A DNA stretch of 64,000 nt from a virus: the IMG/VR virus record IMGVR_UViG_3300025425_000009, positions 1 through 64,000 of that record; one strand, 5' to 3'. Positions 6,317 to 36,797 of this stretch are shown piece by piece; positions within the stretch are counted from its first letter, which is position 1, and every line of letters starts with the position of its first letter. Position numbers and translations under genes: made by a program. The notes below the pieces were generated by a model. That model made no database searches, was not told the DNA's origin, and worked only from the letters and a program-made list of their open reading frames with translations.

Positions 6317-6631
6317 ATGATAGCGCAACAAGTGTTCGAAGTAGGACAGTCTGTAGAGTTCAAAACAATAACTAACCCCGAGACAGGTAGCCCCGAAATA
6401 ATCCAGGGTAAGATTGGTGCACATTTTGACAATGGTACAGTGTCACTTGTGTTAGAGTCAGGTGACATTATCATGGTGCATGAAGATAACTGTGTTGCCA
6501 CAGATGACTGTGGTGTATGCGGAGGGTCTGGTCACCTGATCATTCCTGCTAGGCAGGTTTACTCGAAAGAAAAAGGTGTGCATATACAAGAGGAGGCAGA
6601 TTACAAGTGTAAGAATTGCGACAATGGATAA
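6317..6631 (+). CDS. hypothetical protein with zinc finger
   Basis: CGVCGGSG...CKNC. Confidence 0.65.
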   Translation: MIAQQVFEVGQSVEFKTITNPETGSPEIIQGKIGAHFDNGTVSLVLESGDIIMVHEDNCVATDDCGVCGGSGHLIIPARQVYSKEKGVHIQEEADYKCKNCDNG

Positions 6632-7322
6632 AGAAACAAACATTTTCTTTTTTAAGACGTTGGTAGGTTCACAGGCACATGGGTTGGCTACCCCGGAAAG
6701 CGATAGAGACTACAGAGGTGTGTTTATTCAGCCTACAGGAGAGATACTATCACTAGGATCAAAGCCAAGAACAACATCTTGGTTTGAAGGCGATGAGGAC
6801 AACACATCTTGGGAGCTAGGCCACTTCCTCAACCTTGCAACAAAATGCAACCCTACAGTGCTTGAAGTGTTTTTCGCCCCAGTGGAAAGTGTCAACGCTG
6901 AACTCAACCAAGACTACAAAGAACTTATGGAGTTGTTCCCGCACCTATGGAACTCAAAAGGTGTCAAGGACGCTTTCATGGGTTACGGGTACAGCCAAAG
7001 AAAAAAACTTCTGGAAAACAAAGACAACAGGTCACACAAGTATGCATCAGCATATCTTAGAGTGCTGATTCAGGCTAAAGAACTACTGAGCACAGGACAG
7101 TTTAGGGTGGATTTCAGAGGGCACCCACAATATGAGTATATTAAATCAGTCAAGACACAGAACAGTGACAACGGATTTGACATTTCACTAGGTGCAATCA
7201 TAAACAAGTGTTCAGAGTTGGAGAAGGCAGTTGAAGATGCGTTTACTGCGAACCCTGCTAAAGAAACAGATGTAGCCAAGGCTAACGCATTTCTTTTAAA
7301 GGTACGTAAGAATCACATGTAG
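6624..7322 (+). CDS. DNA pol beta-superfamily nucleotidyltransferase (YcgL/RlaP-like)
   Basis: VGSQAHGLATPESDRDYRGVF (GS..DxD) and KCNPTVLE motifs. Confidence 0.85.
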   Translation: MDKETNIFFFKTLVGSQAHGLATPESDRDYRGVFIQPTGEILSLGSKPRTTSWFEGDEDNTSWELGHFLNLATKCNPTVLEVFFAPVESVNAELNQDYKELMELFPHLWNSKGVKDAFMGYGYSQRKKLLENKDNRSHKYASAYLRVLIQAKELLSTGQFRVDFRGHPQYEYIKSVKTQNSDNGFDISLGAIINKCSELEKAVEDAFTANPAKETDVAKANAFLLKVRKNHM

Positions 7323-7735: not shown

Positions 7736-7767
7736 ATCACTATACTAATCATAACGAAAAACGAATC

Positions 7768-8196
7768 ATGCCAAAACAATCAATGTTCATGTTTGTTCCT
7801 GAAAAGCAACTAACGAGACAGTCAAAGGAGGCTATCAAGAAAAAACAATCGGTTACAGTAGATACCAAATCTGGTGTTCTAAGATTCTCTATGGCATATG
7901 TCAGAGAGGCAAACTTAGACAGGGCGTTTATTAAACTGTATGCAGATGTTAGCACAAAAACAATTGGATGGCGTAAGGTACAAGGAGACATAAGCAGGTT
8001 GTCAGACATGAAAGACCTTAGGCAACTCAAGGTATATAAGAACAAGAAGACTGGATGTGACGTACATTGCCAGATCGGTATATCAAGTTTACTCTCAGCA
8101 ATAAACGTCAAGCCTAAGCTGTTTAGCAGAATGGAAATAAAGCAATATAAGCCCGGTGCCCTCGAAGCAGCAATTACCTACGTAACACTTAAATAG
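7768..8196 (+). CDS. hypothetical protein
   Basis: ATG 7768 downstream of promoter. Confidence 0.7.
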   Translation: MPKQSMFMFVPEKQLTRQSKEAIKKKQSVTVDTKSGVLRFSMAYVREANLDRAFIKLYADVSTKTIGWRKVQGDISRLSDMKDLRQLKVYKNKKTGCDVHCQIGISSLLSAINVKPKLFSRMEIKQYKPGALEAAITYVTLK

Positions 8197-9711: not shown

Positions 9712-10779
9712 ATGCAGTCTCCTACTTACAAACAAATACTCCCTTACATAGAGAAAGGGCTTGTTAAGGAACGGTCACATCCCTGCAATCCTGCAATTAA
9801 GATATTTTGCTACACTGAAGAGTGTGTGTATTCCAAAGCCTGGGACGACATAACACTAGAATGCAGAGGGTTAATACTGAACACACTCACAGATGAGGTG
9901 ATGGCAAGACCGTTTCGTAAGTTCTTTAACTGGGGAGAACTTAGTGAAGATGAGCAGTCTCTGCTGTCCAAAGATAAACACTACTCAGTAGAAGAAAAAC
10001 TTGACGGGTCACTTGGCATCTTATACTGGTACAACGATAAACCTTGTATAGCAACCAAAGGGTCCTTTGACTCTGATCAATCTGTGTGGGCTACAGAATG
10101 GTTTAGACAGAACATCAACTATTCCTACATGCCTGGGAGAACAGAGCTGTTTGAGATAATATACCCGGAAAACAGGATTGTTGTGAACTACCCAGAGTCA
10201 GGACTGTCGCACCTTGCAACCATACAAAAAGACACAGGCAACACTGTCATATCAGAACCAATTGTAGGCTGCAAAACCAGAGCTCTATGTGATGTCTTAC
10301 CAATCGATGCGTTATGCAAACAGGACAAGGACAACGCTGAAGGGTATGTCCTTTACTTTCATGAAACCGGAACAAGAGTTAAGGTCAAATTCCCTAACTA
10401 TGTGGAGAAGCATATGCATGTAACAGGGCTGTCTACTAAGATGATATGGCGTGCCATGTGCAAGTACGATGGTGAGTTGATGAACGTACGTGTGGTTGAC
10501 ATACTCCATGACATACCTGACGAGTTGCATGACTGGGCTGACTCTGTGGTCAAAGACATATGCATGGATTATTATGTAGTGCTAAAAACGGTTATATCTG
10601 AGTTGGCACCTCATGAAAAAGTCATGGCTACCAAGTCTAGAAAAGACATTGCAGAAGTAGTAATGTCAACCACTTACCCAGGACTTGGATTCATGTGGGT
10701 TGACCTCAAAGCAAAGCAGCTTGACAAACAAATCATGAGAACGATAGAGCCGCACGGTAGCAAAACGTTTAAGTATTAA
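9712..10779 (+). CDS. T4 Rnl1-family RNA ligase
   Basis: ECRGLI, RPFRKFFNWGE, motif I EEKLDGSLG, LFEII, EGYV, RVKVK. Confidence 0.9.
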   Translation: MQSPTYKQILPYIEKGLVKERSHPCNPAIKIFCYTEECVYSKAWDDITLECRGLILNTLTDEVMARPFRKFFNWGELSEDEQSLLSKDKHYSVEEKLDGSLGILYWYNDKPCIATKGSFDSDQSVWATEWFRQNINYSYMPGRTELFEIIYPENRIVVNYPESGLSHLATIQKDTGNTVISEPIVGCKTRALCDVLPIDALCKQDKDNAEGYVLYFHETGTRVKVKFPNYVEKHMHVTGLSTKMIWRAMCKYDGELMNVRVVDILHDIPDELHDWADSVVKDICMDYYVVLKTVISELAPHEKVMATKSRKDIAEVVMSTTYPGLGFMWVDLKAKQLDKQIMRTIEPHGSKTFKY

Positions 10780-10993: not shown

Positions 10994-11122
10994 TATGACA
11001 GACACAGACAAAGCAAGAAAGGTTGCTGCTATTATAGATCTCATCCACCCGTCCAACGAAGGTGATTGGGTAGAACATATAGACTGCTCCTACAGCGAAT
11101 TTATAGACTTAATAAACGAATT

Positions 11123-12040
11123 ATGGCAAAACTAGTAATGACAAAAGGGCTGCCTAGATCAGGTAAATCAACATGGGCAAAGGACTATGTGCTTCGGTCA
11201 GGCAACGCAGTAAGGGTGAACAAGGACGACCTACGTGCAATGCTCCATGCTGGTAAATGGAGTCAGCAAAATGAAAGACTGACCAGGCATGCAGAAAAAG
11301 CCATGGTGATAGCCATGCTTAACAAAGGCAAATCTGTGGTGGTAGATAACACCCATATGCCAGAAAAGTATGAGGTTGAATGGAAAGCTGTTGCAGAGGA
11401 GTGCGGTGCAACCTTTGCAATTGAGAGGTTTGACGAAGCCGACCTACGTGTTCTTGCCAAACGAGATTATAACAGTGATTCTAGAAGAGGTATCAACATT
11501 ATCACAGACACTGCTCTTGTGTTTGACAAGATACACTTCGAAGATGACAGCCTTATCATCTGTGACATAGACGGCACCATAGCAAACTGCGAGCATAGAC
11601 GAAAGTATGCCAGCGGTGATACAAAAAACTGGGACACATTCTTTAAGTTGGCACCACAAGACACACTGATAGCCAACACAGACCTCATGCTTAAGGAGTA
11701 TATGGCACAAGGAAAACATATTATGTTTGTGTCTGCCCGACCAGAGCACTGCAGGCAAGACACAGAAAGTTGGCTGTCAGACAACGGCTGGCTAAACAAG
11801 TTTTCTAAGTCTGCAGAACTTGCCAATGAATCAAAGGTGCAGCATCACTGCTACTTTGGACTGCTCATGAGAAGTGACGGCGACAGCAGGGACGACACTG
11901 TTGTTAAACAGCAAATTCTTGACAGGATGCTTAAAAAAGAGTGGATCCACACTGTGATAGATGATAGACCAAAGATAGTAAGGATGTGGCAGGACAATGG
12001 GGTGCCTGTCATAGATGTAGGAAATGGTATAGAATTCTAA
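11123..12040 (+). CDS. pseT: polynucleotide 5'-kinase/3'-phosphatase (T4 PseT/Pnkp-like)
   Basis: P-loop GLPRSGKST plus HAD motifs DIDGT, SAR and DDR. Confidence 0.9.
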   Translation: MAKLVMTKGLPRSGKSTWAKDYVLRSGNAVRVNKDDLRAMLHAGKWSQQNERLTRHAEKAMVIAMLNKGKSVVVDNTHMPEKYEVEWKAVAEECGATFAIERFDEADLRVLAKRDYNSDSRRGINIITDTALVFDKIHFEDDSLIICDIDGTIANCEHRRKYASGDTKNWDTFFKLAPQDTLIANTDLMLKEYMAQGKHIMFVSARPEHCRQDTESWLSDNGWLNKFSKSAELANESKVQHHCYFGLLMRSDGDSRDDTVVKQQILDRMLKKEWIHTVIDDRPKIVRMWQDNGVPVIDVGNGIEF

Positions 12041-31282: not shown

Positions 31283-32752
31283 ATGACAAGATTTAACAAA
31301 CCACAGCAGAATACTACGGAAAACCATGAAGGGTCCACAGCATTCATGCATTCACCTGAATTGCAGCTGTATTCGTTGGTTGTGACTTGCATGGTCAGTG
31401 ATAAGTTTTACGAATCATCTGATGATCAACTGGTTCGACTAAGAGGTCTTCTACCTACAGTAGACCCTAAGTTTGCTGTACAACTTGCAATTTATGCTAG
31501 AGAAGAGATGCATCTAAGAACAATACCTCTTGTTCTAATGATAGAGCTAGCCAGGATCCACTCAGGTGACAACCTTGTTTCCCAAGGTGTTGGTAGAGTG
31601 ATTCAGAGGGTTGATGAAATAACAGAAATGCTTGCGTATTACTGTGCTGCTAACAACCGTAATGATGTTGCTCCGTTGTCTAAGCAAATTCAGAAGGGGT
31701 TACAGGTGGCGTTTAACAAGTTCAATCACTACCAGTTTGCCAAGTACAACAGGCCTGGTAAGGTGACACTTAAAGATGCACTGTTCATTGTTAGACCGAG
31801 CAGTGATACGTTCAAGCAGTCAGAAGTGTTTGCAATGATTGCATCAGGCACGCTTGGATCAGCAGACACATGGGAAACCTCTCTGTCCTCAGGGCTAGAT
31901 AAGAAAGAAGCATGGGAGGAGTTAATCATGAATGACAAGCTTGGTTACATGGCCATGATGAGAAACCTAAGAAACTTCGTACAGGCAGGCATCTCTAAGG
32001 ATGCACTAGTTAAGGTGTGCCAATTCATATCTGCTAAGGAACGGGTACTTGCGTCTAAGCAACTCCCATTTAGATTCTACTCAGCGTATAGAATGTTGAA
32101 AGAGGTGGAAGGTGACGGGGTGACGATGATCCTAGACTCTCTGAATAAGGCAGTCAAGCATTCAATAGCCAACATACCTTTTTTCAGTGAAACCGAAAGT
32201 GTCATGATTGCATGTGACGTATCTGCATCAATGATGGTGCCTCTGTCTGACAAGAGCGTAGTTGAGTATTACGATGTAGGTCTCCTTCTTGGGTCTTTAC
32301 TTCAGGCCAACTCCAACTTCGTCCAGACAGGACTGTTCGGAGATACATTCAAGGTGTACCCAATGGCATCCACCAACATACTGGAGAATGCTTGCCAGCT
32401 AAGAAGGTGTGAAGGCGATGTAGGTTACGCTACAAACGGTCACACTGTTATTGAGTATCTGACCCAGACAGGTAAGAGTGTTGACAAAGTCGTTATGTTT
32501 ACTGACTGTCAGATGACTGATTCATCATACGACGGACGTGCCCTTAGTGCAGCTTGGAACCAGTACAAAACACAACACCCTAACTCCAAATTATACATTT
32601 TCAACTTGTCAGGCTATGGCAAGGAAGTGTTCTCACAACATGCCAATGACATTTTTCAAGTGGCTGGTTGGAGTGAAAAAATATTTGATATGCTTCATTC
32701 GTTGGAATCAGGGGACTCAGTTATTTCAACAATTCAAAAAATTAGTATATAA
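31283..32752 (+). CDS. rsr: Ro60/Rsr TROVE-vWA RNA-binding protein
   Basis: NHEG, LAIYAREEMHLR, QFAKYNR, TWE, LGYMAMMRNLRN, LPFRFYSAY; vWA MIDAS DVSAS...TDCQ. Confidence 0.95.
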   Translation: MTRFNKPQQNTTENHEGSTAFMHSPELQLYSLVVTCMVSDKFYESSDDQLVRLRGLLPTVDPKFAVQLAIYAREEMHLRTIPLVLMIELARIHSGDNLVSQGVGRVIQRVDEITEMLAYYCAANNRNDVAPLSKQIQKGLQVAFNKFNHYQFAKYNRPGKVTLKDALFIVRPSSDTFKQSEVFAMIASGTLGSADTWETSLSSGLDKKEAWEELIMNDKLGYMAMMRNLRNFVQAGISKDALVKVCQFISAKERVLASKQLPFRFYSAYRMLKEVEGDGVTMILDSLNKAVKHSIANIPFFSETESVMIACDVSASMMVPLSDKSVVEYYDVGLLLGSLLQANSNFVQTGLFGDTFKVYPMASTNILENACQLRRCEGDVGYATNGHTVIEYLTQTGKSVDKVVMFTDCQMTDSSYDGRALSAAWNQYKTQHPNSKLYIFNLSGYGKEVFSQHANDIFQVAGWSEKIFDMLHSLESGDSVISTIQKISI

Positions 32753-32757
32753 TACTA

Positions 32758-32895
32758 GTACTAGGTGCTGTAGAAAACAGTTACTTCCACTTTAAGGACA
32801 AGGTCGGTGGTTCGATTCCACCTCAACACTTCGGTGTTGATAGCTCAATGGTAGAGCATGTATAACACACCTGTTTTCGCTTGTTGCCCTAGTAC
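32758..32895 (+). ncRNA. YrlA-type Y RNA with tRNA-like domain
   Basis: stems GTACTAGG/CCTAGTAC and GAAAACAG/CTGTTTTC enclose T-arm GGTGG-TTCGATT-CCACC, closed acceptor hairpin TCAACAC-TTCG-GTGTTGA and D-arm TAGCTCAATGGTAGAGC; starts 5 nt after the Ro60 stop. Confidence 0.9.
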
Positions 32896-32897
32896 AT

Positions 32898-32971
32898 ACC
32901 TTTATAGCTTAGTGGTAAAGCAGGCGGCTTTTAACCGTCCGACCTAAGTTCGATTCTTAGTGGGGGTACCA
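32898..32971 (+). tRNA. tRNA-Lys(UUU)
   Basis: cloverleaf; loop CTTTTAA; CCA encoded; three G-U pairs in acceptor stem. Confidence 0.8.
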
Positions 32972-32986
32972 GTTCTAAACAAACTG

Positions 32987-33200
32987 AGAGGAAGATGGTA
33001 GAGTGTTCCAAGTTGGAGTGGCGGAATTCATTAAAGACGCTTATAATCCTTGTCCTGATCCTCTAAGGTAAGTGGAGGACGCCCCCAAGCTGCATTGTAA
33101 GACTTGGAATTGGGAGACCGTGGAAGCAGTAGAATGCTCCGACGTGCAAAGGTGGAAGTCCTTTGCCTCCAACATAGAGCACAGTACTGCTGTTTCCTCT
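32987..33200 (+). ncRNA. tRNA-like RNA A with extended acceptor stem
   Basis: AGAGGAA/TTCCTCT, GTGTTC/GAGCAC, GTTGGAG/CTCCAAC; Leu-like D-arm TGGCGGAAT..AGACGC; T-like arm GCAAAGG-TGGAAGT-CCTTTGC. Confidence 0.7.
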
Positions 33201-33276
33201 GGACGGTTAGCCTAGTGGTTAAGGCACACAGCTTATACCTGTGCATACGAAGGTTCGATTCCTTCACCGTCTACCA
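33201..33276 (+). tRNA. tRNA-Ile(UAU)
   Basis: cloverleaf; loop CTTATAC; CCA encoded. Confidence 0.9.
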
Positions 33277-33294
33277 GTGTTACAACACTGAAAA

Positions 33295-33425
33295 GAAGTG
33301 TTCTTCATAGTGAGGTGGCGGACAGTGAGCCGTAATGGACTCGGACATAGGAATATCAAACCTTAGATGTCCTAGTTGTGATGATCCTGCAAGTCAAACC
33401 TTGCCCTCACTGTGAAGAACATTTC
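33295..33425 (+). ncRNA. tRNA-like RNA B with 21-bp terminal stem
   Basis: GAAGTGTTCTTCATAGTGAGG/CCTCACTGTGAAGAACATTTC; TGGCGG D-like arm; GCAAG-TCAAAC-CTTGC T-like arm. Confidence 0.7.
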
Positions 33426-33428
33426 AAG

Positions 33429-33638
33429 CATGACTATCTTTCGCGCCACATTAGCAGGTGAATGACTGAAGATACCAAACCTTAGTGGAGGCCACGTACG
33501 GGCACCGCGCTTTAACAGGAAGAGGGAGGATAGGCCACCGATTCCTGCTGTGATCCATCCACTGTCCTAGGTGGTGCATGGAAATAGACTTATGTCATGA
33601 GGGTGTAAACCCCTCGTGGTGCGCGAAAGGTAGTCATG
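33429..33638 (+). ncRNA. tRNA-like RNA C with 17+4-bp terminal stem
   Basis: CATGACTATCTTTCGCG/CGCGAAAGGTAGTCATG plus CCAC/GTGG; T-like arm GAGGG-TGTAAAC-CCCTC. Confidence 0.65.
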
Positions 33639-33646
33639 GCGAACAT

Positions 33647-33720
33647 AGGTCATTAACTCAGTGGTAGAGTGCCTGTCTTACATACAGGAAGCCCTCAGTT
33701 CAAATCTGAGATGACCTACC
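33647..33720 (+). tRNA. tRNA-Val(UAC)
   Basis: cloverleaf; loop CTTACAT. Confidence 0.9.
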
Positions 33721-33741
33721 GGTTCACTAGCAACTGAAAAC

Positions 33742-33815
33742 AGGCCTTTAGCATAATTGGAAGTGCAACACGGTTCTAACGTGTTAGATGTCAGTTCGAG
33801 TCTGGCAAGGCTTAC
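33742..33815 (+). tRNA. tRNA-Arg(UCU)
   Basis: cloverleaf; loop GTTCTAA. Confidence 0.85.
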
Positions 33816-33886
33816 CGCGGGGTGGAGAAACGGCATCTCGGTGGTCTCATAAACCACAGAACCCAGTTCAACTCTGGGCCCCGCGA
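33816..33886 (+). tRNA. tRNA-Met(CAU), initiator-like 5' end
   Basis: CGCGGGG/CCCCGCG acceptor; loop CTCATAA. Confidence 0.85.
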
Positions 33887-33906
33887 CAACGATAACAAAA
33901 CAAACA

Positions 33907-34479
33907 ATGATAATCTACACCAGGAAAAAAGAAATACAGTTTGCACAGACCTCAAGTGAAATAGAAGGAGAACTCTCTGAAAGTGCATGGCAGGACCATC
34001 TTGATGCGTGGGACTTCCTTAAGGAAACTGATACCGTGTCTTTGCATGATCTGTTAGAATGCCACTACGGGCTGCAAATACGGCTGAGACCTGACATTGC
34101 CGGTAAGTTTAGAACATGCAATGTTAGGGTCGGCTCCCACATAATGCCTCATTATGCCAGTGTTGTAGCAATGACACGCGCATGGCTGCGTAAGTGGACA
34201 GGCAGCAAGTTGCCTAAGACTGAGGAAGAGTGTAGGACTGCTCATATAGAGTTTGAGAATATACACCCCTTTGAAGATGGCAACGGTAGAGTAGGCCGGT
34301 GTATACTGAATTGGCACAGGCGTAAGCTAAACCTGCCGATTCTGATTATCCATGTAGGTGAAGAGCAGCAGGCATATTACGGCTGGTTCAAAGAGGCACA
34401 AAACAGTGATGCACTTTATAAAACACTAGGCAGTGACTGTGTCAGATCCTACACAAAGAAGTTTACCAAAAAGAGATAA
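33907..34479 (+). CDS. Fic-domain protein
   Basis: canonical HPFEDGNGRVGR; N-terminal SSEIEG inhibitory-type motif. Confidence 0.92.
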   Translation: MIIYTRKKEIQFAQTSSEIEGELSESAWQDHLDAWDFLKETDTVSLHDLLECHYGLQIRLRPDIAGKFRTCNVRVGSHIMPHYASVVAMTRAWLRKWTGSKLPKTEEECRTAHIEFENIHPFEDGNGRVGRCILNWHRRKLNLPILIIHVGEEQQAYYGWFKEAQNSDALYKTLGSDCVRSYTKKFTKKR

Positions 34480-34489
34480 CTCACACCAC

Positions 34490-34672
34490 ATGACCACAAA
34501 AGATAAATCTGTTGAACCAGAAGACAAGACAAACAGGGCAGGCCGAAGAGCAAGTGCAAAACAGCGTCGTGGAGTGGCTGAGCATAACCGCAAGTACAAA
34601 TTAGCTGTACACTTGAATGACGGTAGCACAGCAAAGCGAAAGAGATTACAAGCACTATGTAAAAACACGTAA
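34490..34672 (+). CDS. small basic protein
   Basis: NRAGRR motif; K/R-rich. Confidence 0.45.
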   Translation: MTTKDKSVEPEDKTNRAGRRASAKQRRGVAEHNRKYKLAVHLNDGSTAKRKRLQALCKNT

Positions 34673-34676
34673 GAAT

Positions 34677-35693
34677 ATGGCAAAGAAAGCAACAAGCAAA
34701 GGCACAATCTCAGATGCACTTGCAATACTGGAAAAGAAGCATGGTAAAGGTGCTGTTATGAAGTTGGCAAAAGGGGAACAGATCACCAAGGTTGAGCTGC
34801 TTCCTACAGGTATTTATTCTATCGACAAGGCACTAGGTGGAGGGTTTGCAAGAGGAAGAGTGGTAGAGCTGTACGGAAATGAAGGGTCCGGTAAGACTAC
34901 CCTTGCACTGCAGACCATCGCTAAAGCCCAGGCCGATGGACTTAAGGCTGCTTTCATAGATGTGGAACACGCGTTCAGTCTGCAATATGCCAGATCTTTA
35001 GGAGTTGACCTAGAAGAGTTGTATTTTTCACAGCCTAAGTCAGCAGAGATGGCGATGGACATTGCCAAGACACTTGCCCAAACAGGCGAGTTTGCTGTGG
35101 TGGTAGTTGACTCAGTGGCAGCATTAACACCTGACACAGAGTTTGATGGAGAGATAGGTAAGGCACAGATAGGGCACCTTGCTAGATTCATGTCGGCTGC
35201 ACTAAGGCAGATTGTTGGTGAGTTCCACAAGACAGGCACATCACTTATTTTTATCAACCAGCTCAGAATGAAAATTGGTGTAATGTTCGGAAACCCTGAG
35301 ACAACACCTGGTGGAAATGCACTAAAGTATTATGCATCACAGCGACTTGCTATACGTAAGTCTACAAAGATAGATAATAAGGAAGGTGTCACCATAGGGT
35401 ACAACGCACTCATTAGAGTAGAGAAAAACAAGATAGCGCTACCTAACATTAAAGCAACTGTGCCTGTGACAAATGGTAAAGGGTTTGACAAGGTTGCTGA
35501 CATGTTCCAGGTTGCGGAATTACTTAATGTCATAACTAAGGAGAAGGCGTCCTACTTTTTCAATGGTGAGAAACTTGGAGTGTACGAGGTAAACGCAAAA
35601 CAGGCACTGTACGACAGTCTAGACATATACACAGCAATAGAAGAAGCAGTCATAGCGTTAAACAACCCTGATGAAAGCGCTAACATAGTATAG
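34677..35693 (+). CDS. recA: RecA recombinase
   Basis: GNEGSGKTT, FIDVEHA, VDSVAAL, INQLRMKIGVMFGNPETTPGGNALKYYAS. Confidence 0.97.
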   Translation: MAKKATSKGTISDALAILEKKHGKGAVMKLAKGEQITKVELLPTGIYSIDKALGGGFARGRVVELYGNEGSGKTTLALQTIAKAQADGLKAAFIDVEHAFSLQYARSLGVDLEELYFSQPKSAEMAMDIAKTLAQTGEFAVVVVDSVAALTPDTEFDGEIGKAQIGHLARFMSAALRQIVGEFHKTGTSLIFINQLRMKIGVMFGNPETTPGGNALKYYASQRLAIRKSTKIDNKEGVTIGYNALIRVEKNKIALPNIKATVPVTNGKGFDKVADMFQVAELLNVITKEKASYFFNGEKLGVYEVNAKQALYDSLDIYTAIEEAVIALNNPDESANIV

Positions 35694-35695
35694 CA

Positions 35696-36214
35696 ATGAA
35701 AACAACAGAAGAATTTAAAGATGAGTTTCCGAAGACTTACAAGGAGATTAGATCTGCAGAGTTAAGAAAACAGCAAAGCAACAAGGCAGACACTGAGTGT
35801 TCCCATCGATGCTGGATTAAGAAGTGTAGTTTTTGCTCAGTGATCATGGAGTCAGACAGCCAGGTAAACTACAAATGCGGGGAGGATGTTAAAACGGAGT
35901 TTAGTGTACTGACAGGCATAGTGACAAACTTCAATGTATCTGAGAAACTACAAAACCGCAGGATCGGCCAGAGAACTAAGTTATATTGGGTCTACTCCCC
36001 TGTGAATGATGAGATTGGACTTAGATGTTATGAGAATGTGTCAATACAACACACTCAAATAATTGCTGCATACTCATCATCTGAGTTAGTGGCAAAACTA
36101 CGTAGGTTACCTGTAGAAATCATGACAGATGAGGTCTACCTTTATATAGGACAGAACGCGTTTGACCCTAACCGACTTGCTAGGCTATATCTTAAACTAA
36201 CAGCAGTACAGTAA
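35696..36214 (+). CDS. hypothetical protein
   Basis: CSH...CSFC zinc motif; ORF in array. Confidence 0.65.
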   Translation: MKTTEEFKDEFPKTYKEIRSAELRKQQSNKADTECSHRCWIKKCSFCSVIMESDSQVNYKCGEDVKTEFSVLTGIVTNFNVSEKLQNRRIGQRTKLYWVYSPVNDEIGLRCYENVSIQHTQIIAAYSSSELVAKLRRLPVEIMTDEVYLYIGQNAFDPNRLARLYLKLTAVQ

Positions 36215-36309
36215 AGGTCACCTCAACAACATTCACGAGGCCCAGCCTGCACCTTAGGCGGGTGTGGCACAGGAAAGGGTTAGAATATACCTCTACTGCA
36301 CATAACAAC

Positions 36310-36356
36310 GTTGTTAACATGTCACAATGTGCATCTCCAAGAGAACGTGGTATAAT
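36310..36356 (+). promoter_or_regulatory. conserved phage promoter driving the second tRNA cluster
   Basis: GTTGTTAACA 36310, TGTGCA 36328, 17 nt, TATAAT 36351. Confidence 0.75.
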
Positions 36357-36376
36357 AGTTATATCTTGGAGGAAAT

Positions 36377-36448
36377 TGACCTGTAGCCAAGTGGTAAGGC
36401 AAGGGATTGTTACTCCCTGTACCGCAGGTTCGAATCCTGCCGGGTCAG
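36377..36448 (+). tRNA. tRNA-Asn(GUU)
   Basis: cloverleaf; loop TTGTTAC. Confidence 0.9.
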
Positions 36449-36543
36449 CAAGGTTAAATCTCATAGATTCGCTTATTGAAAGTAAGTGTATTGTAAATAC
36501 ACCGACCTATGAGTACCTATGCAACACACTAGTGTGTCTGCTA

Positions 36544-36719
36544 AGACGGTGCTGTAGACAACAGTTACTTCTACATCTTCAGAAAAAACAATAATGCATA
36601 GCATGCTAAACTTCGGTTTACATGCATAATGAGTGTAGGTTAAGCCTGCGCCTTCTCTGGTAAAGCAGAGTCGTACTAGAGTATTCACTCTTATCACTGT
36701 TGTCGATTGTTGCCCGTTT
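36544..36719 (+). ncRNA. second Y RNA with non-tRNA effector domain
   Basis: GGTGCTGTAGACAACAGTTACTTC...CTGTTGTCGATTGTTGCCC matches the ends of Y RNA 1 with a compensatory base-pair change. Confidence 0.85.
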
Positions 36720-36723
36720 GATT

Positions 36724-36797
36724 GCTCTGTTAGTTCAATAGGAGAACGCTACCTTGTCACGGTAGTAACGTCGGAGCGTAACCGTCACAGAGCGCCA
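36724..36797 (+). tRNA. tRNA-Asp(GUC)
   Basis: cloverleaf; loop TTGTCAC; atypical T-loop AGCGTAA; CCA encoded. Confidence 0.85.

What the first reader, a model, noticed from the sequence alone, without database searches (positions are those of the whole stretch)
31283..36719. Phage Ro60 with two Y RNAs: one Ro-binding stem, two different effector domains
Seen: a full TROVE-vWA gene is followed 5 nt later by an RNA (32758-32895) whose terminal stem encloses a permuted tRNA mimic in the order T-arm, UUCG-closed acceptor stem, D-arm. A second RNA (36544-36719) carries the same ends, GGUGCUGUAGA(A/C)AACAGUUACUUC...CUGUU(U/G)UCG(C/A)UUGUUGCCC, with a compensatory A-U to C-G change. Established: bacterial Rsr/Ro60 binds Y RNAs, YrlA RNAs have this tRNA-like module, and Y RNAs can tether Ro to effectors such as PNPase. 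Inference: the phage builds two Ro RNPs with swappable RNA modules, for RNA quality control or counter-defence during infection.
Basis: partly seen in the sequence, partly recalled or inferred. Interest (0 to 1): 0.9.

Follow-up and report, generated by a model that had tools for sequence, protein, structure and literature searches.

The report
Phage Ro60 with two Y RNAs
A salt-lake phage carries a gene for the ring-shaped RNA-binding protein Ro60 plus two small "Y" RNAs that share one Ro60-docking stem but have different inner parts; the feature is real, but it is a further example of a kind already described in bacteria and phages.

Summary
ORF 31283-32752 is a full Ro60 (TROVE plus vWA domains, MIDAS motif present). 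RNA1 (core 32764-32889) is a YrlA-type tRNA-mimic Y RNA. RNA2 (core 36548-36715) has the same paired ends, one A-U to C-G compensatory swap, and a 125-nt non-tRNA interior that matches nothing searched.

A covariance model built from 24 relatives finds exactly these two elements in the 75.7-kb phage record. It also finds 2-10 such RNAs beside Ro60 in most related viral, metagenomic and named Bacteroidota loci. Across 82 of them the stem pairs covary strongly.

A syntenic relative, L047, keeps a Y RNA at RNA2's position just before tRNA-Asp, with a co-varied stem and an unalignable interior. Both window RNAs end 8 nt before a tRNA. This 6-12 nt spacing recurs elsewhere and suggests maturation with the tRNA array.

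Chen et al. 2014 reported YrlA next to Ro60 in 254 bacteria and 22 phages, with at least two Y RNAs in each species studied. Thermus phage phiLo Ro60 binds two phage-encoded Y-like RNAs (2025). This is therefore a new member of a known kind. Binding, expression and function remain inferred.

The parts
31283..32752 (+). Ro60/Rsr ortholog, 489 aa (TROVE ring plus vWA domain with MIDAS DVSAS)
   Evidence: Pfam and PHROG matches. Aligns with solved phiLo Ro60. Best relatives are about 50% identical, and the best bacterial relatives are nearly all titled Bacteroidota.
32726..32753 (+). Promoter-like site (TCAACA, 16 nt, TATAAT) ending about 7 nt before the RNA1 leader
   Evidence: One of the two 10/12 matches in the scanned region, but the number of such sites in the region is not above chance. 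Weak evidence.
32757..32896 (+). RNA1 with its extended basal stem (GUACUAG / CUAGUAC flanks)
   Evidence: The minimum-free-energy fold pairs the flanks; z-score -3.85.
32764..32889 (+). RNA1 core: YrlA-type Y RNA
   Evidence: Rfam YrlA 36.6 bits. Family model R1 scores 107.5 bits, E 2e-24; RNA1 was one of the 24 training sequences.
32764..32787 (+). RNA1 5' strand of the putative Ro60-docking stem (GGUGCUGUAG, 7 nt, UUACUUC)
   Evidence: Conserved block in alignment A2. Present in two copies in the window.
32787..32797 (+). Short anticodon-arm-like hairpin (CC, ACUUUAA, GG)
   Evidence: Read from the sequence. The family consensus is CGA, CUnnUAA, UCG.
32806..32822 (+). T-arm mimic (GGUGG, UUCGAUU, CCACC)
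   Evidence: YrlA alignment. This helix is 97% paired and covaries across 82 sequences.
32823..32840 (+). Acceptor-stem mimic: 7 bp closed by UUCG
   Evidence: All 7 pairs show changes on both sides within the family.
32841..32858 (+). D-arm mimic (UAGCUCAAUGGUAGAGCA)
32871..32889 (+). RNA1 3' strand of the docking stem (CUGUUUU, CGCUUGUUGCCC)
32898..32971 (+). tRNA-Lys(UUU), 8 nt after the RNA1 core
   Evidence: ARAGORN and Rfam. Spacing analysis.
36544..36719 (+). RNA2 with its extended basal stem
   Evidence: The minimum-free-energy fold pairs AGACGG with CCGUUU; z-score -3.35.
36548..36715 (+). RNA2 core: second Y RNA
   Evidence: R1 scores 36.9 bits, E 4.6e-7, through the two stem strands only; RNA2 was not in the training set. 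The positional ortholog is L047:10630-10757.
36572..36696 (+). RNA2 interior: A-rich linker plus four hairpins, the first closed by UUCG; not tRNA-like
   Evidence: Fold. No Rfam match. No sequence relative in about 1.1 Mb of Ro60 loci.
36724..36794 (+). tRNA-Asp(GUC) with an atypical T loop, 8 nt after the RNA2 core
   Evidence: Rfam tRNA 50.7 bits; not called by ARAGORN. L047 has tRNA-Asp(GTC) at the matching place.

Best explanation
This is a phage-borne Ro60/Y-RNA system of the type found next to Ro60 in Bacteroidota chromosomes, probably captured from that lineage.

The phage encodes a complete Ro60 ring protein and two Y RNAs. Both RNAs pair their 5' and 3' ends into the same conserved bulged stem: 5' GGUG-YY-GUAG, 7 nt, UUACUUC, and 3' the 7-nt complement followed by UCG-N-UUGUU-N-CCC. 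I infer that this stem is the Ro60 docking site.

RNA1 carries a circularly permuted tRNA mimic (anticodon-like hairpin, T-arm, 7-bp acceptor-like hairpin, D-arm) and is therefore a YrlA-type Y RNA. RNA2 carries an unrelated 125-nt interior made of an A-rich linker and four hairpins.

Both genes lie in the phage's tRNA array, each 8 nt upstream of a tRNA. I infer that they are transcribed with the tRNAs and released by tRNA-processing enzymes, with RNase P cutting at the 5' end of the downstream tRNA.

By analogy with Deinococcus, Salmonella and phage phiLo, each RNA would gate the Ro60 ring and tether it to a different partner. The candidates are tRNA-recognising enzymes or PNPase for RNA1, and an unknown partner for RNA2. 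The result would be two Ro60 particles that act on structured or damaged RNA during infection.

Shown here: the gene, the two RNAs, their family membership by covariance model, stem covariation, synteny and spacing. Inferred: binding, processing, partners and purpose.
For: - **Ro60 gene.** It is full length with both domains.
- **RNA1.** It matches Rfam YrlA over the whole model in the correct arm order. It aligns with 23 relatives from Ro60 loci, with invariant blocks on both stem strands.
- **Family model.** R1 finds exactly two elements in the whole 75,657-bp record. The third hit is a tandem-tRNA artefact.
- **Spread of the family.** R1 finds 61 elements in 27 viral Ro60 loci, 307 in 80 metagenomic Ro60 loci, and 79 in 20 named Bacteroidota isolates. 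All listed hits lie on the Ro60 strand.
- **Covariation.** On 82 aligned elements, 94.8% of cells are paired against 66.5% when shuffled. 23 of 24 pairs have changes on both sides. The covariation score is 0.44, against 0.13 shuffled and 0.04-0.07 with slid partners. The three stem helices are 92-99% paired.
- **Synteny.** L047 encodes Ro60 at 51% identity, Fic at 55%, RecA at 58% and a 172-aa protein at 48%. It has a Y RNA 7 nt before tRNA-Asp(GTC). Its stem differs from RNA2 by compensatory changes and its interior is unalignable.
- **Spacing.** The Y-to-tRNA gap is 8 nt for both window RNAs and 6-12 nt in 20 of 26 adjacent cases among 232 elements.
- **Published precedent.** At least two Y RNAs per species, one of them tRNA-like, encoded within 4 kb of Ro60 on the same strand (PMC4201824). 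Phage phiLo Ro60 binds two phage-encoded Y-like RNAs and assembles with host PNPase (PMC12135203).
Against: - There is no expression or binding data for this phage. No RNA run holds the stretch (which is no evidence either way).
- RNA1 scores below the Rfam YrlA gathering score (36.6 against 69).
- The published bacterial motif GNCGAA(N0-1)G is not present as such. The nearest block here is GCUGUAG, or GYCGUAG in the family, so which nucleotides contact Ro60 is unknown.
- R1 was trained on a set that includes RNA1, whose stem is almost identical to RNA2's. RNA2's score is therefore not fully independent.
- The A4 alignment was fitted to the model, which inflates the paired percentages.
- RNA2's interior is not conserved even in the one syntenic relative, so nothing here shows that the interior has a specific partner.
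Confidence: 0.8

Rival explanations
1. RNA2 is a decaying duplicate. A copy of the RNA1 stem survives around drifted or inserted sequence, and the element has no function of its own.
For: The interior has no relative anywhere searched. It cannot be aligned even with its positional ortholog in L047. The two stems in the window are nearly identical, which could reflect recent duplication.
Against: The one stem difference inside the helix is compensatory. A Y RNA sits at the same place, just before tRNA-Asp, in a phage whose proteins are only 48-58% identical. Its stem is re-paired by several double changes, which implies long-term selection on the stem. Both interiors fold far better than shuffles, with z-scores of -3.35 and -4.49. 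Relatives routinely carry several non-tRNA Y RNAs.
Confidence: 0.07
2. The phage RNAs act mainly on the host rather than on the phage protein. Because their stem matches the Bacteroidota consensus, they could soak up or retarget the host's own Ro60. Alternatively, RNA1's tRNA mimic could be the working part, for example as a decoy or sensor for host tRNA-targeting nucleases, with Ro60 only stabilising it.
For: The stem consensus is shared with chromosomal loci of named Bacteroidota. The genome also carries about 21 tRNAs, a T4 Rnl1-type RNA ligase, PNKP and RlaP. This is a tRNA supply and repair kit of the kind phages use against anticodon nucleases.
Against: The phage brings its own complete Ro60, and the L047 relative keeps Ro60, YrlA and the second Y RNA together. 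That argues for a cognate protein-RNA unit. The tRNA mimic has no full anticodon arm. Nothing was tested directly.
Confidence: 0.1
3. The two elements are processing or punctuation structures of the tRNA operon, that is, leader hairpins that guide RNase P or RNase Z or act as transcript boundaries. On this view they are not Ro60 ligands.
For: Both lie 8 nt before a tRNA, and this tight spacing recurs.
Against: Most elements of the same family sit next to Ro60 with no tRNA within 60 nt; only 26 of 232 have one downstream. In the whole phage record the family occurs only near Ro60. The other roughly 19 tRNAs of this phage have no such leader.
Confidence: 0.03

Closest known systems
Bacterial Rsr with YrlA and YrlB (Salmonella Typhimurium, Mycobacterium smegmatis) and Deinococcus Rsr with Yrn1 and Yrn2 (PMC4201824)
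   Same: A Ro60 ortholog with at least two Y RNAs encoded within 4 kb on the same strand. One RNA carries a T-arm, acceptor-like and D-arm tRNA mimic enclosed by the Ro60-binding stem. Like M. smegmatis YrlA, RNA1 has a 7-bp acceptor-like stem.
   Different: This one is encoded by a phage. It scores below the Rfam YrlA threshold. The conserved stem block reads G-Y-Y-GUAG rather than GNCGAA(N0-1)G. [quoted passage not shown] The genes sit in a tRNA array rather than beside rtcBA.
Thermus phage phiLo Ro60 with Yrl1 and Yrl2 (PMC12135203; PDB 9KOP, 9L5Y)
   Same: A phage-encoded Ro60 plus two phage-encoded Y-like RNAs. It is the only solved structure that the window protein hits by sequence (E 3e-24). 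That paper proposes use of host PNPase and counter-defence.
   Different: Protein identity is only about 26%. The phiLo RNAs lie upstream of the gene and were picked by a CGAA motif. For phiLo, binding and complexes are shown experimentally. Here nothing is.
Mycobacteriophage Ro60 with YrlA; 22 phages listed in PMC4201824
   Same: Phages that carry Ro60 with an adjacent YrlA-type RNA.
   Different: A different host phylum and a different stem consensus. I could not read that paper's supplementary tables, so I do not know how many of those phages have a second Y RNA.
   Same: The same stem consensus, the same YrlA-type interior, and proteins 46-49% identical.
   Different: The bacteria carry tandem arrays of 2-9 Y RNAs directly after the gene. 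The phage has two, 3.7 kb apart, separated by tRNAs and by the Fic and RecA genes.

Membership tests
Ro60 / Rsr protein | TROVE (HEAT-repeat ring) domain | tested here: met
   Pfam PF05731, 5.5e-29. PHROG 850, 3.5e-48.
Ro60 / Rsr protein | C-terminal vWA domain with a MIDAS DxSxS motif | tested here: met
   PF25045, 1.1e-6, 29.1 bits against a cut-off of 27.7. DVSAS aligns with DVSGS of phiLo Ro60.
Ro60 / Rsr protein | Full length, alignable end to end with a solved Ro60 | tested here: met
   Residues 9-481 align with residues 18-489 of 9L5Y.
YrlA (Rfam RF02553) | Score at or above the curated gathering score | tested here: not met
   36.6 bits against 69, with a significant E-value of 1.6e-5 over 4.4 kb. 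None of 12 related viral loci reached the gathering score either, although they clearly carry the same RNA. The model does not cover this clade well.
YrlA (Rfam RF02553) | tRNA-like module in the order T-arm, acceptor-like hairpin, D-arm, enclosed by a terminal stem | tested here: met
   Full-model alignment. Covarying helices in 24 and 82 sequences.
YrlA (Rfam RF02553) | Encoded within 4 kb of the Ro60 gene on the same strand (criterion of PMC4201824) | tested here: met
   RNA1 starts 5-12 nt after the stop codon.
YrlA (Rfam RF02553) | GNCGAA(N0-1)G motif near the 5' end | tested here: inconclusive
   The motif is not present as written. The nearest block is GCUGUAG (family GYCGUAG). Under the Rfam alignment the motif position holds ACAGUUAC.
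Y RNA in general (applied to RNA2) | 5' and 3' ends pair into a conserved stem shared with the cognate Y RNAs | tested here: met
   There is one compensatory pair relative to RNA1, and there are several relative to L047.
Y RNA in general (applied to RNA2) | Encoded near Ro60 on the same strand | tested here: met
   3.8 kb downstream on the same strand, and the only other family hit in the 75.7-kb record.
Y RNA in general (both RNAs) | Bound by Ro60 and dependent on it for stable accumulation | not testable with these tools
   Needs an electrophoretic mobility-shift assay, RNA immunoprecipitation or Northern blots. No RNA run was listed.
Metazoan Y RNA (Rfam RF00019) | Match to the covariance model | tested here: not met
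   No hit for either RNA at E up to 10 on short stretches.

The most novel reading that the evidence does not exclude
Y RNAs of this clade may be a cassette system: a fixed Ro60-docking stem that carries fast-changing interiors. RNA2 and its L047 counterpart keep their position and stem while their interiors have diverged beyond alignment. RNA2 would then be a new adaptor class that recruits a partner other than PNPase or tRNA enzymes, for example a host defence or RNA-repair factor. The fast turnover would reflect a phage-host arms race. The fixed 6-12 nt gap to the next tRNA would make RNase P the enzyme that sets the Y RNA's 3' tail.
Probability: 0.2. Interest if true: 0.65.

Novelty: new member of a known kind. 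Interest (0 to 1): 0.35.

Why it matters
This is a clean, compact example of a complete Ro60 system in a phage: one protein and two RNAs in a 75.7-kb genome. The same genome also carries about 21 tRNAs, an Rnl1-type RNA ligase, PNKP and RlaP. That makes it a convenient model for asking what Ro60 particles do during infection and what a non-tRNA Y RNA interior recruits.

The comparative by-products may be more useful than the window itself:
- The curated YrlA model misses the Bacteroidota-type family.
- Loci of that clade carry arrays of up to about ten Y RNAs with one stem and many different interiors.
- Y RNAs and tRNAs are often packed 3-12 nt apart, which points to shared processing.

None of this changes the current picture of Ro60 biology. 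It extends that picture.

Tried and rejected
- **Megablast of the 5.5-kb region against phage records:** no match.
- **Single-protein scan of viral contigs:** no relative.
- **Exact stem pattern in viral contigs:** 16 hits, all chance matches inside coding sequence.
- **BLAST of RNA2's interior against all fetched loci:** only 12-16 nt chance matches.
- **Scan of viral contigs with the phage-specific 172-aa neighbour protein, to find more syntenic relatives:** none. L047 remains the only one, so RNA2's interior could not be tested for covariation.
- **Rfam at a permissive threshold on RNA2:** nothing.
- **Sequencing runs:** no RNA holder listed.
- **Contigs of four salt-lake DNA runs laid on the region:** identical to the window over both RNAs, so they give no natural variation to read.
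- **Regex detection of Y RNAs:** gave false positives, for example window 55135 and 57092. I replaced it with the covariance model.
- **ORFs overlapping RNA2** (36473-36697 minus strand, 36262-36594 plus strand): no PHROG family. The plus-strand ORF also overlaps tRNA-Asn.
- **The stretch 36450-36547 before RNA2:** folds no better than about 5% of shuffles (z -1.87). I do not claim it as an RNA.
- **Permuted Y/tRNA forms:** none found in the window.
- **Two review papers and the supplement of PMC4201824:** not held.

Full report
**What is there**

The window is the first 64 kb of a 75,657-bp IMG/VR virus record that CheckV rates as complete. GC content is about 43%. The same sequence is held by several salt-lake metagenome runs.

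ORF 31283-32752 on the + strand encodes a 489-aa protein with a TROVE domain and the Ro60-type vWA domain. It belongs to PHROG 850. It aligns almost end to end with the solved Ro60 of Thermus phage phiLo, and the MIDAS motif is present as DVSAS.

Ro60 genes occur in 98 phage records of the INPHARED set, all below 60% identity to this protein; the listed ones are at most 40%, and about 32% over the full length. The nearest proteins in the large protein database are about 50% identical. In a scan of one genome per species, all but one of the 80 best relatives are titled as Bacteroidota: Cytophagales, Chitinophagales, Flavobacteriales and Sphingobacteriales. One is titled Williamsia sp.

**RNA1**

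Five nucleotides after the stop codon a structured element begins. The Rfam YrlA model aligns to 32774-32880 over its whole length, in this order:
- T-arm, 32806-32822
- 7-bp hairpin closed by UUCG, 32823-32840
- D-arm, 32841-32858

The score is 36.6 bits, below the curated 69, but E is 1.6e-5 over 4.4 kb. The ends pair, and the flanking GUACUAG and CUAGUAC extend the stem (z -3.85).

**RNA2**

The 24-nt 5' block and the 19-nt 3' block of RNA1 each recur exactly once, at 36548 and 36697. Chance expectation is 0.00 and 0.02. Inside the helix the only difference is A to C on one strand and U to G on the other, which is compensatory. The third difference lies at a position that varies freely in the family.

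RNA2 folds with its ends paired around a 125-nt interior: an A-rich linker and four hairpins, the first closed by UUCG (z -3.35). The interior has no T or D loop, no Rfam match, and no sequence relative in any locus I fetched. The ORFs that overlap it have no family, and one of them runs through tRNA-Asn.

**Relatives and the family model**

An alignment of the 25 nearest Ro60 proteins (A1) retrieved 27 viral loci, 80 metagenomic loci and 80 genomic loci. Reading the DNA next to the viral Ro60 genes showed many elements with the same ends: 5' GGUG-YY-GUAG, 7 nt, UUACUUC, then a 7-nt complement followed by UCG-N-UUGUU-N-CCC at the 3' end.

Twenty-four tRNA-mimic examples, including RNA1, align well (A2). 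The consensus fold has 24 pairs, and 19 of them show double changes.

The covariance model R1 built from A2 gave these results:

| Search space | Result |
|---|---|
| Window, RNA1 | 107.5 bits |
| Window, RNA2 | 36.9 bits, E 4.6e-7, through the stem strands alone |
| Whole phage record | no other real hit; the third hit joins the T-arm of one tRNA to the D-arm of the next |
| 27 viral Ro60 loci | 61 elements |
| 80 metagenomic Ro60 loci | 307 elements |
| 20 named Bacteroidota isolates | 79 elements, 2-9 per locus |

All listed hits lie on the Ro60 strand.

On 82 aligned elements:
- 94.8% of cells are paired, against 66.5% when shuffled.
- 23 of 24 pairs have changes on both sides.
- The covariation score is 0.44, against 0.13 shuffled and 0.04-0.07 with slid partners.
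- The three helices of the terminal stem are 92-99% paired.

Two caveats apply. RNA1 is in the training set, and its stem is nearly the same as RNA2's. The alignment was also fitted to the model.

**A syntenic relative**

L047 is a 23-kb metagenome contig that shares the gene order with the window: Ro60, Y RNAs and tRNAs, Fic, RecA, a 172/200-aa protein, Y RNA, tRNA-Asp. Protein identities are 51, 55, 58 and 48%.

L047 has a 55-nt mini Y RNA, a YrlA-type RNA, and a third Y RNA at 10630-10757. That third RNA ends 7 nt before tRNA-Asp(GTC). The window's RNA2 ends 8 nt before a tRNA that Rfam calls at 50.7 bits, with anticodon GUC.

The stem strands and the first flanking bases align. The helix is re-paired by several double changes (ACAACAG/CUGUUGU against AAAAGGG/CCCUUUU). 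The interiors do not align, yet both fold well. This is the best evidence that RNA2 is a maintained element and not a chance copy. It also shows that selection acts on the stem and the position rather than on the interior sequence.

**Placement among tRNAs**

Both window RNAs end 8 nt before a tRNA. Among 232 model hits in 81 loci, 26 have a tRNA within 60 nt downstream, and in 20 of those the gap is 6-12 nt. Where a tRNA precedes a Y RNA, the gap is 3-8 nt in 9 of 13 cases.

I take this as a sign of co-transcription and release by tRNA-processing enzymes. That is an inference. A promoter-like site, one of the two best 10/12 matches in the region, ends at 32753 just before RNA1, but such sites are not enriched in the region.

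**How it most likely works**

Published work supplies the mechanism:
- Y RNAs bind the outer face of the Ro60 ring through their terminal stem.
- They can tether Ro60 to PNPase.
- The authors proposed that the other Y RNAs widen the range of Ro60 complexes (PMC4201824).
- Phage phiLo Ro60 binds two phage-encoded Y-like RNAs and forms complexes with host PNPase (PMC12135203).

The window fits this scheme: one docking stem, two interiors, hence two particles.

The same genome also encodes RlaP (6576-7322), a T4 Rnl1-type RNA ligase (9712-10779) and PNKP (11066-12040), plus about 21 tRNAs. A role in keeping the translation apparatus working during infection is therefore plausible. It is unproven.

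RNA1's 7-bp acceptor-like stem is the feature that allowed RNase P cleavage of M. smegmatis YrlA (PMC4201824), so the same may happen here.

**Comparison with the known, and verdict**

Everything that defines a Ro60/Y-RNA locus and that I could test is met. The exceptions are the Rfam threshold and the literal GNCGAA(N0-1)G motif, and both seem to reflect a clade the model was not built on. Binding could not be tested.

Phage Ro60 with YrlA has been known since 2014, and a phage Ro60 with two Y-like RNAs since 2025. This is therefore a new member of a known kind. The unassigned interior of RNA2 and its fast divergence are the only open points.

Interest is 0.35. Earlier notes of this scan cover the same stretch and its neighbours. 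I used them as leads only.

Noticed in passing
L024:7643-7769 and L032:about 7745-7860: Circularly permuted relatives of YrlA. Each is a tRNA-shaped gene with an open acceptor stem, a D-arm and a T-arm, in which the anticodon arm is replaced by the Ro60-docking stem closed by a 4-5 nt loop. Rfam calls the L024 one a 127-nt tRNA at 47.4 bits.
   Followed up: partly
L019-L045, L046-L125, L126-L205: Ro60 loci of this clade, viral and bacterial, carry arrays of 2 to about 10 Y RNAs. They share one stem and have very different interiors: mini forms of about 55 nt, tRNA mimics, and forms of 220 nt or more. The curated Rfam YrlA model reaches its threshold on none of the 12 viral loci tested.
   Followed up: partly
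window 32988-33638: Three structured non-coding stretches lie between tRNAs. They have long closing stems and tRNA-like D-arm sequence, for example GUGGCGGAAUU. Two of them share AU-N-YCAAACCUUAG. They have no Rfam match and no hit with the Y RNA model.
   Followed up: no
window 36724-36794: A tRNA-Asp(GUC) with an atypical T arm (GGAGCGUAACC in place of GGUUCGAAUCC, with one mismatched pair). Rfam finds it at 50.7 bits and ARAGORN misses it.
   Followed up: partly
window 33907-34479; L047:8037-8570: A Fic-domain protein with the canonical HPFEDGNGRVGR motif lies between the two Y RNAs. It is conserved in the syntenic relative at 55% identity. No link to Ro60 has been shown.
   Followed up: partly
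window 6576-7322, 9712-10779, 11066-12040: An RNA repair set in the same phage: an RlaP nucleotidyltransferase, a T4 Rnl1-type RNA ligase, and a polynucleotide kinase-phosphatase.
   Followed up: partly
L022:8990-9222: A long Y RNA whose interior contains CCUAAGGUAGCGUAAUUC. From memory this resembles a conserved 23S rRNA segment. I did not check it against any rRNA sequence.
   Followed up: no
L039:8569-8796 and L054:7981-8202: Two homologous Y RNAs of about 225 nt. Each has a degenerate tRNA mimic plus extra hairpins with GAUUCGUC loops, and each ends about 8 nt before a tRNA.
   Followed up: partly
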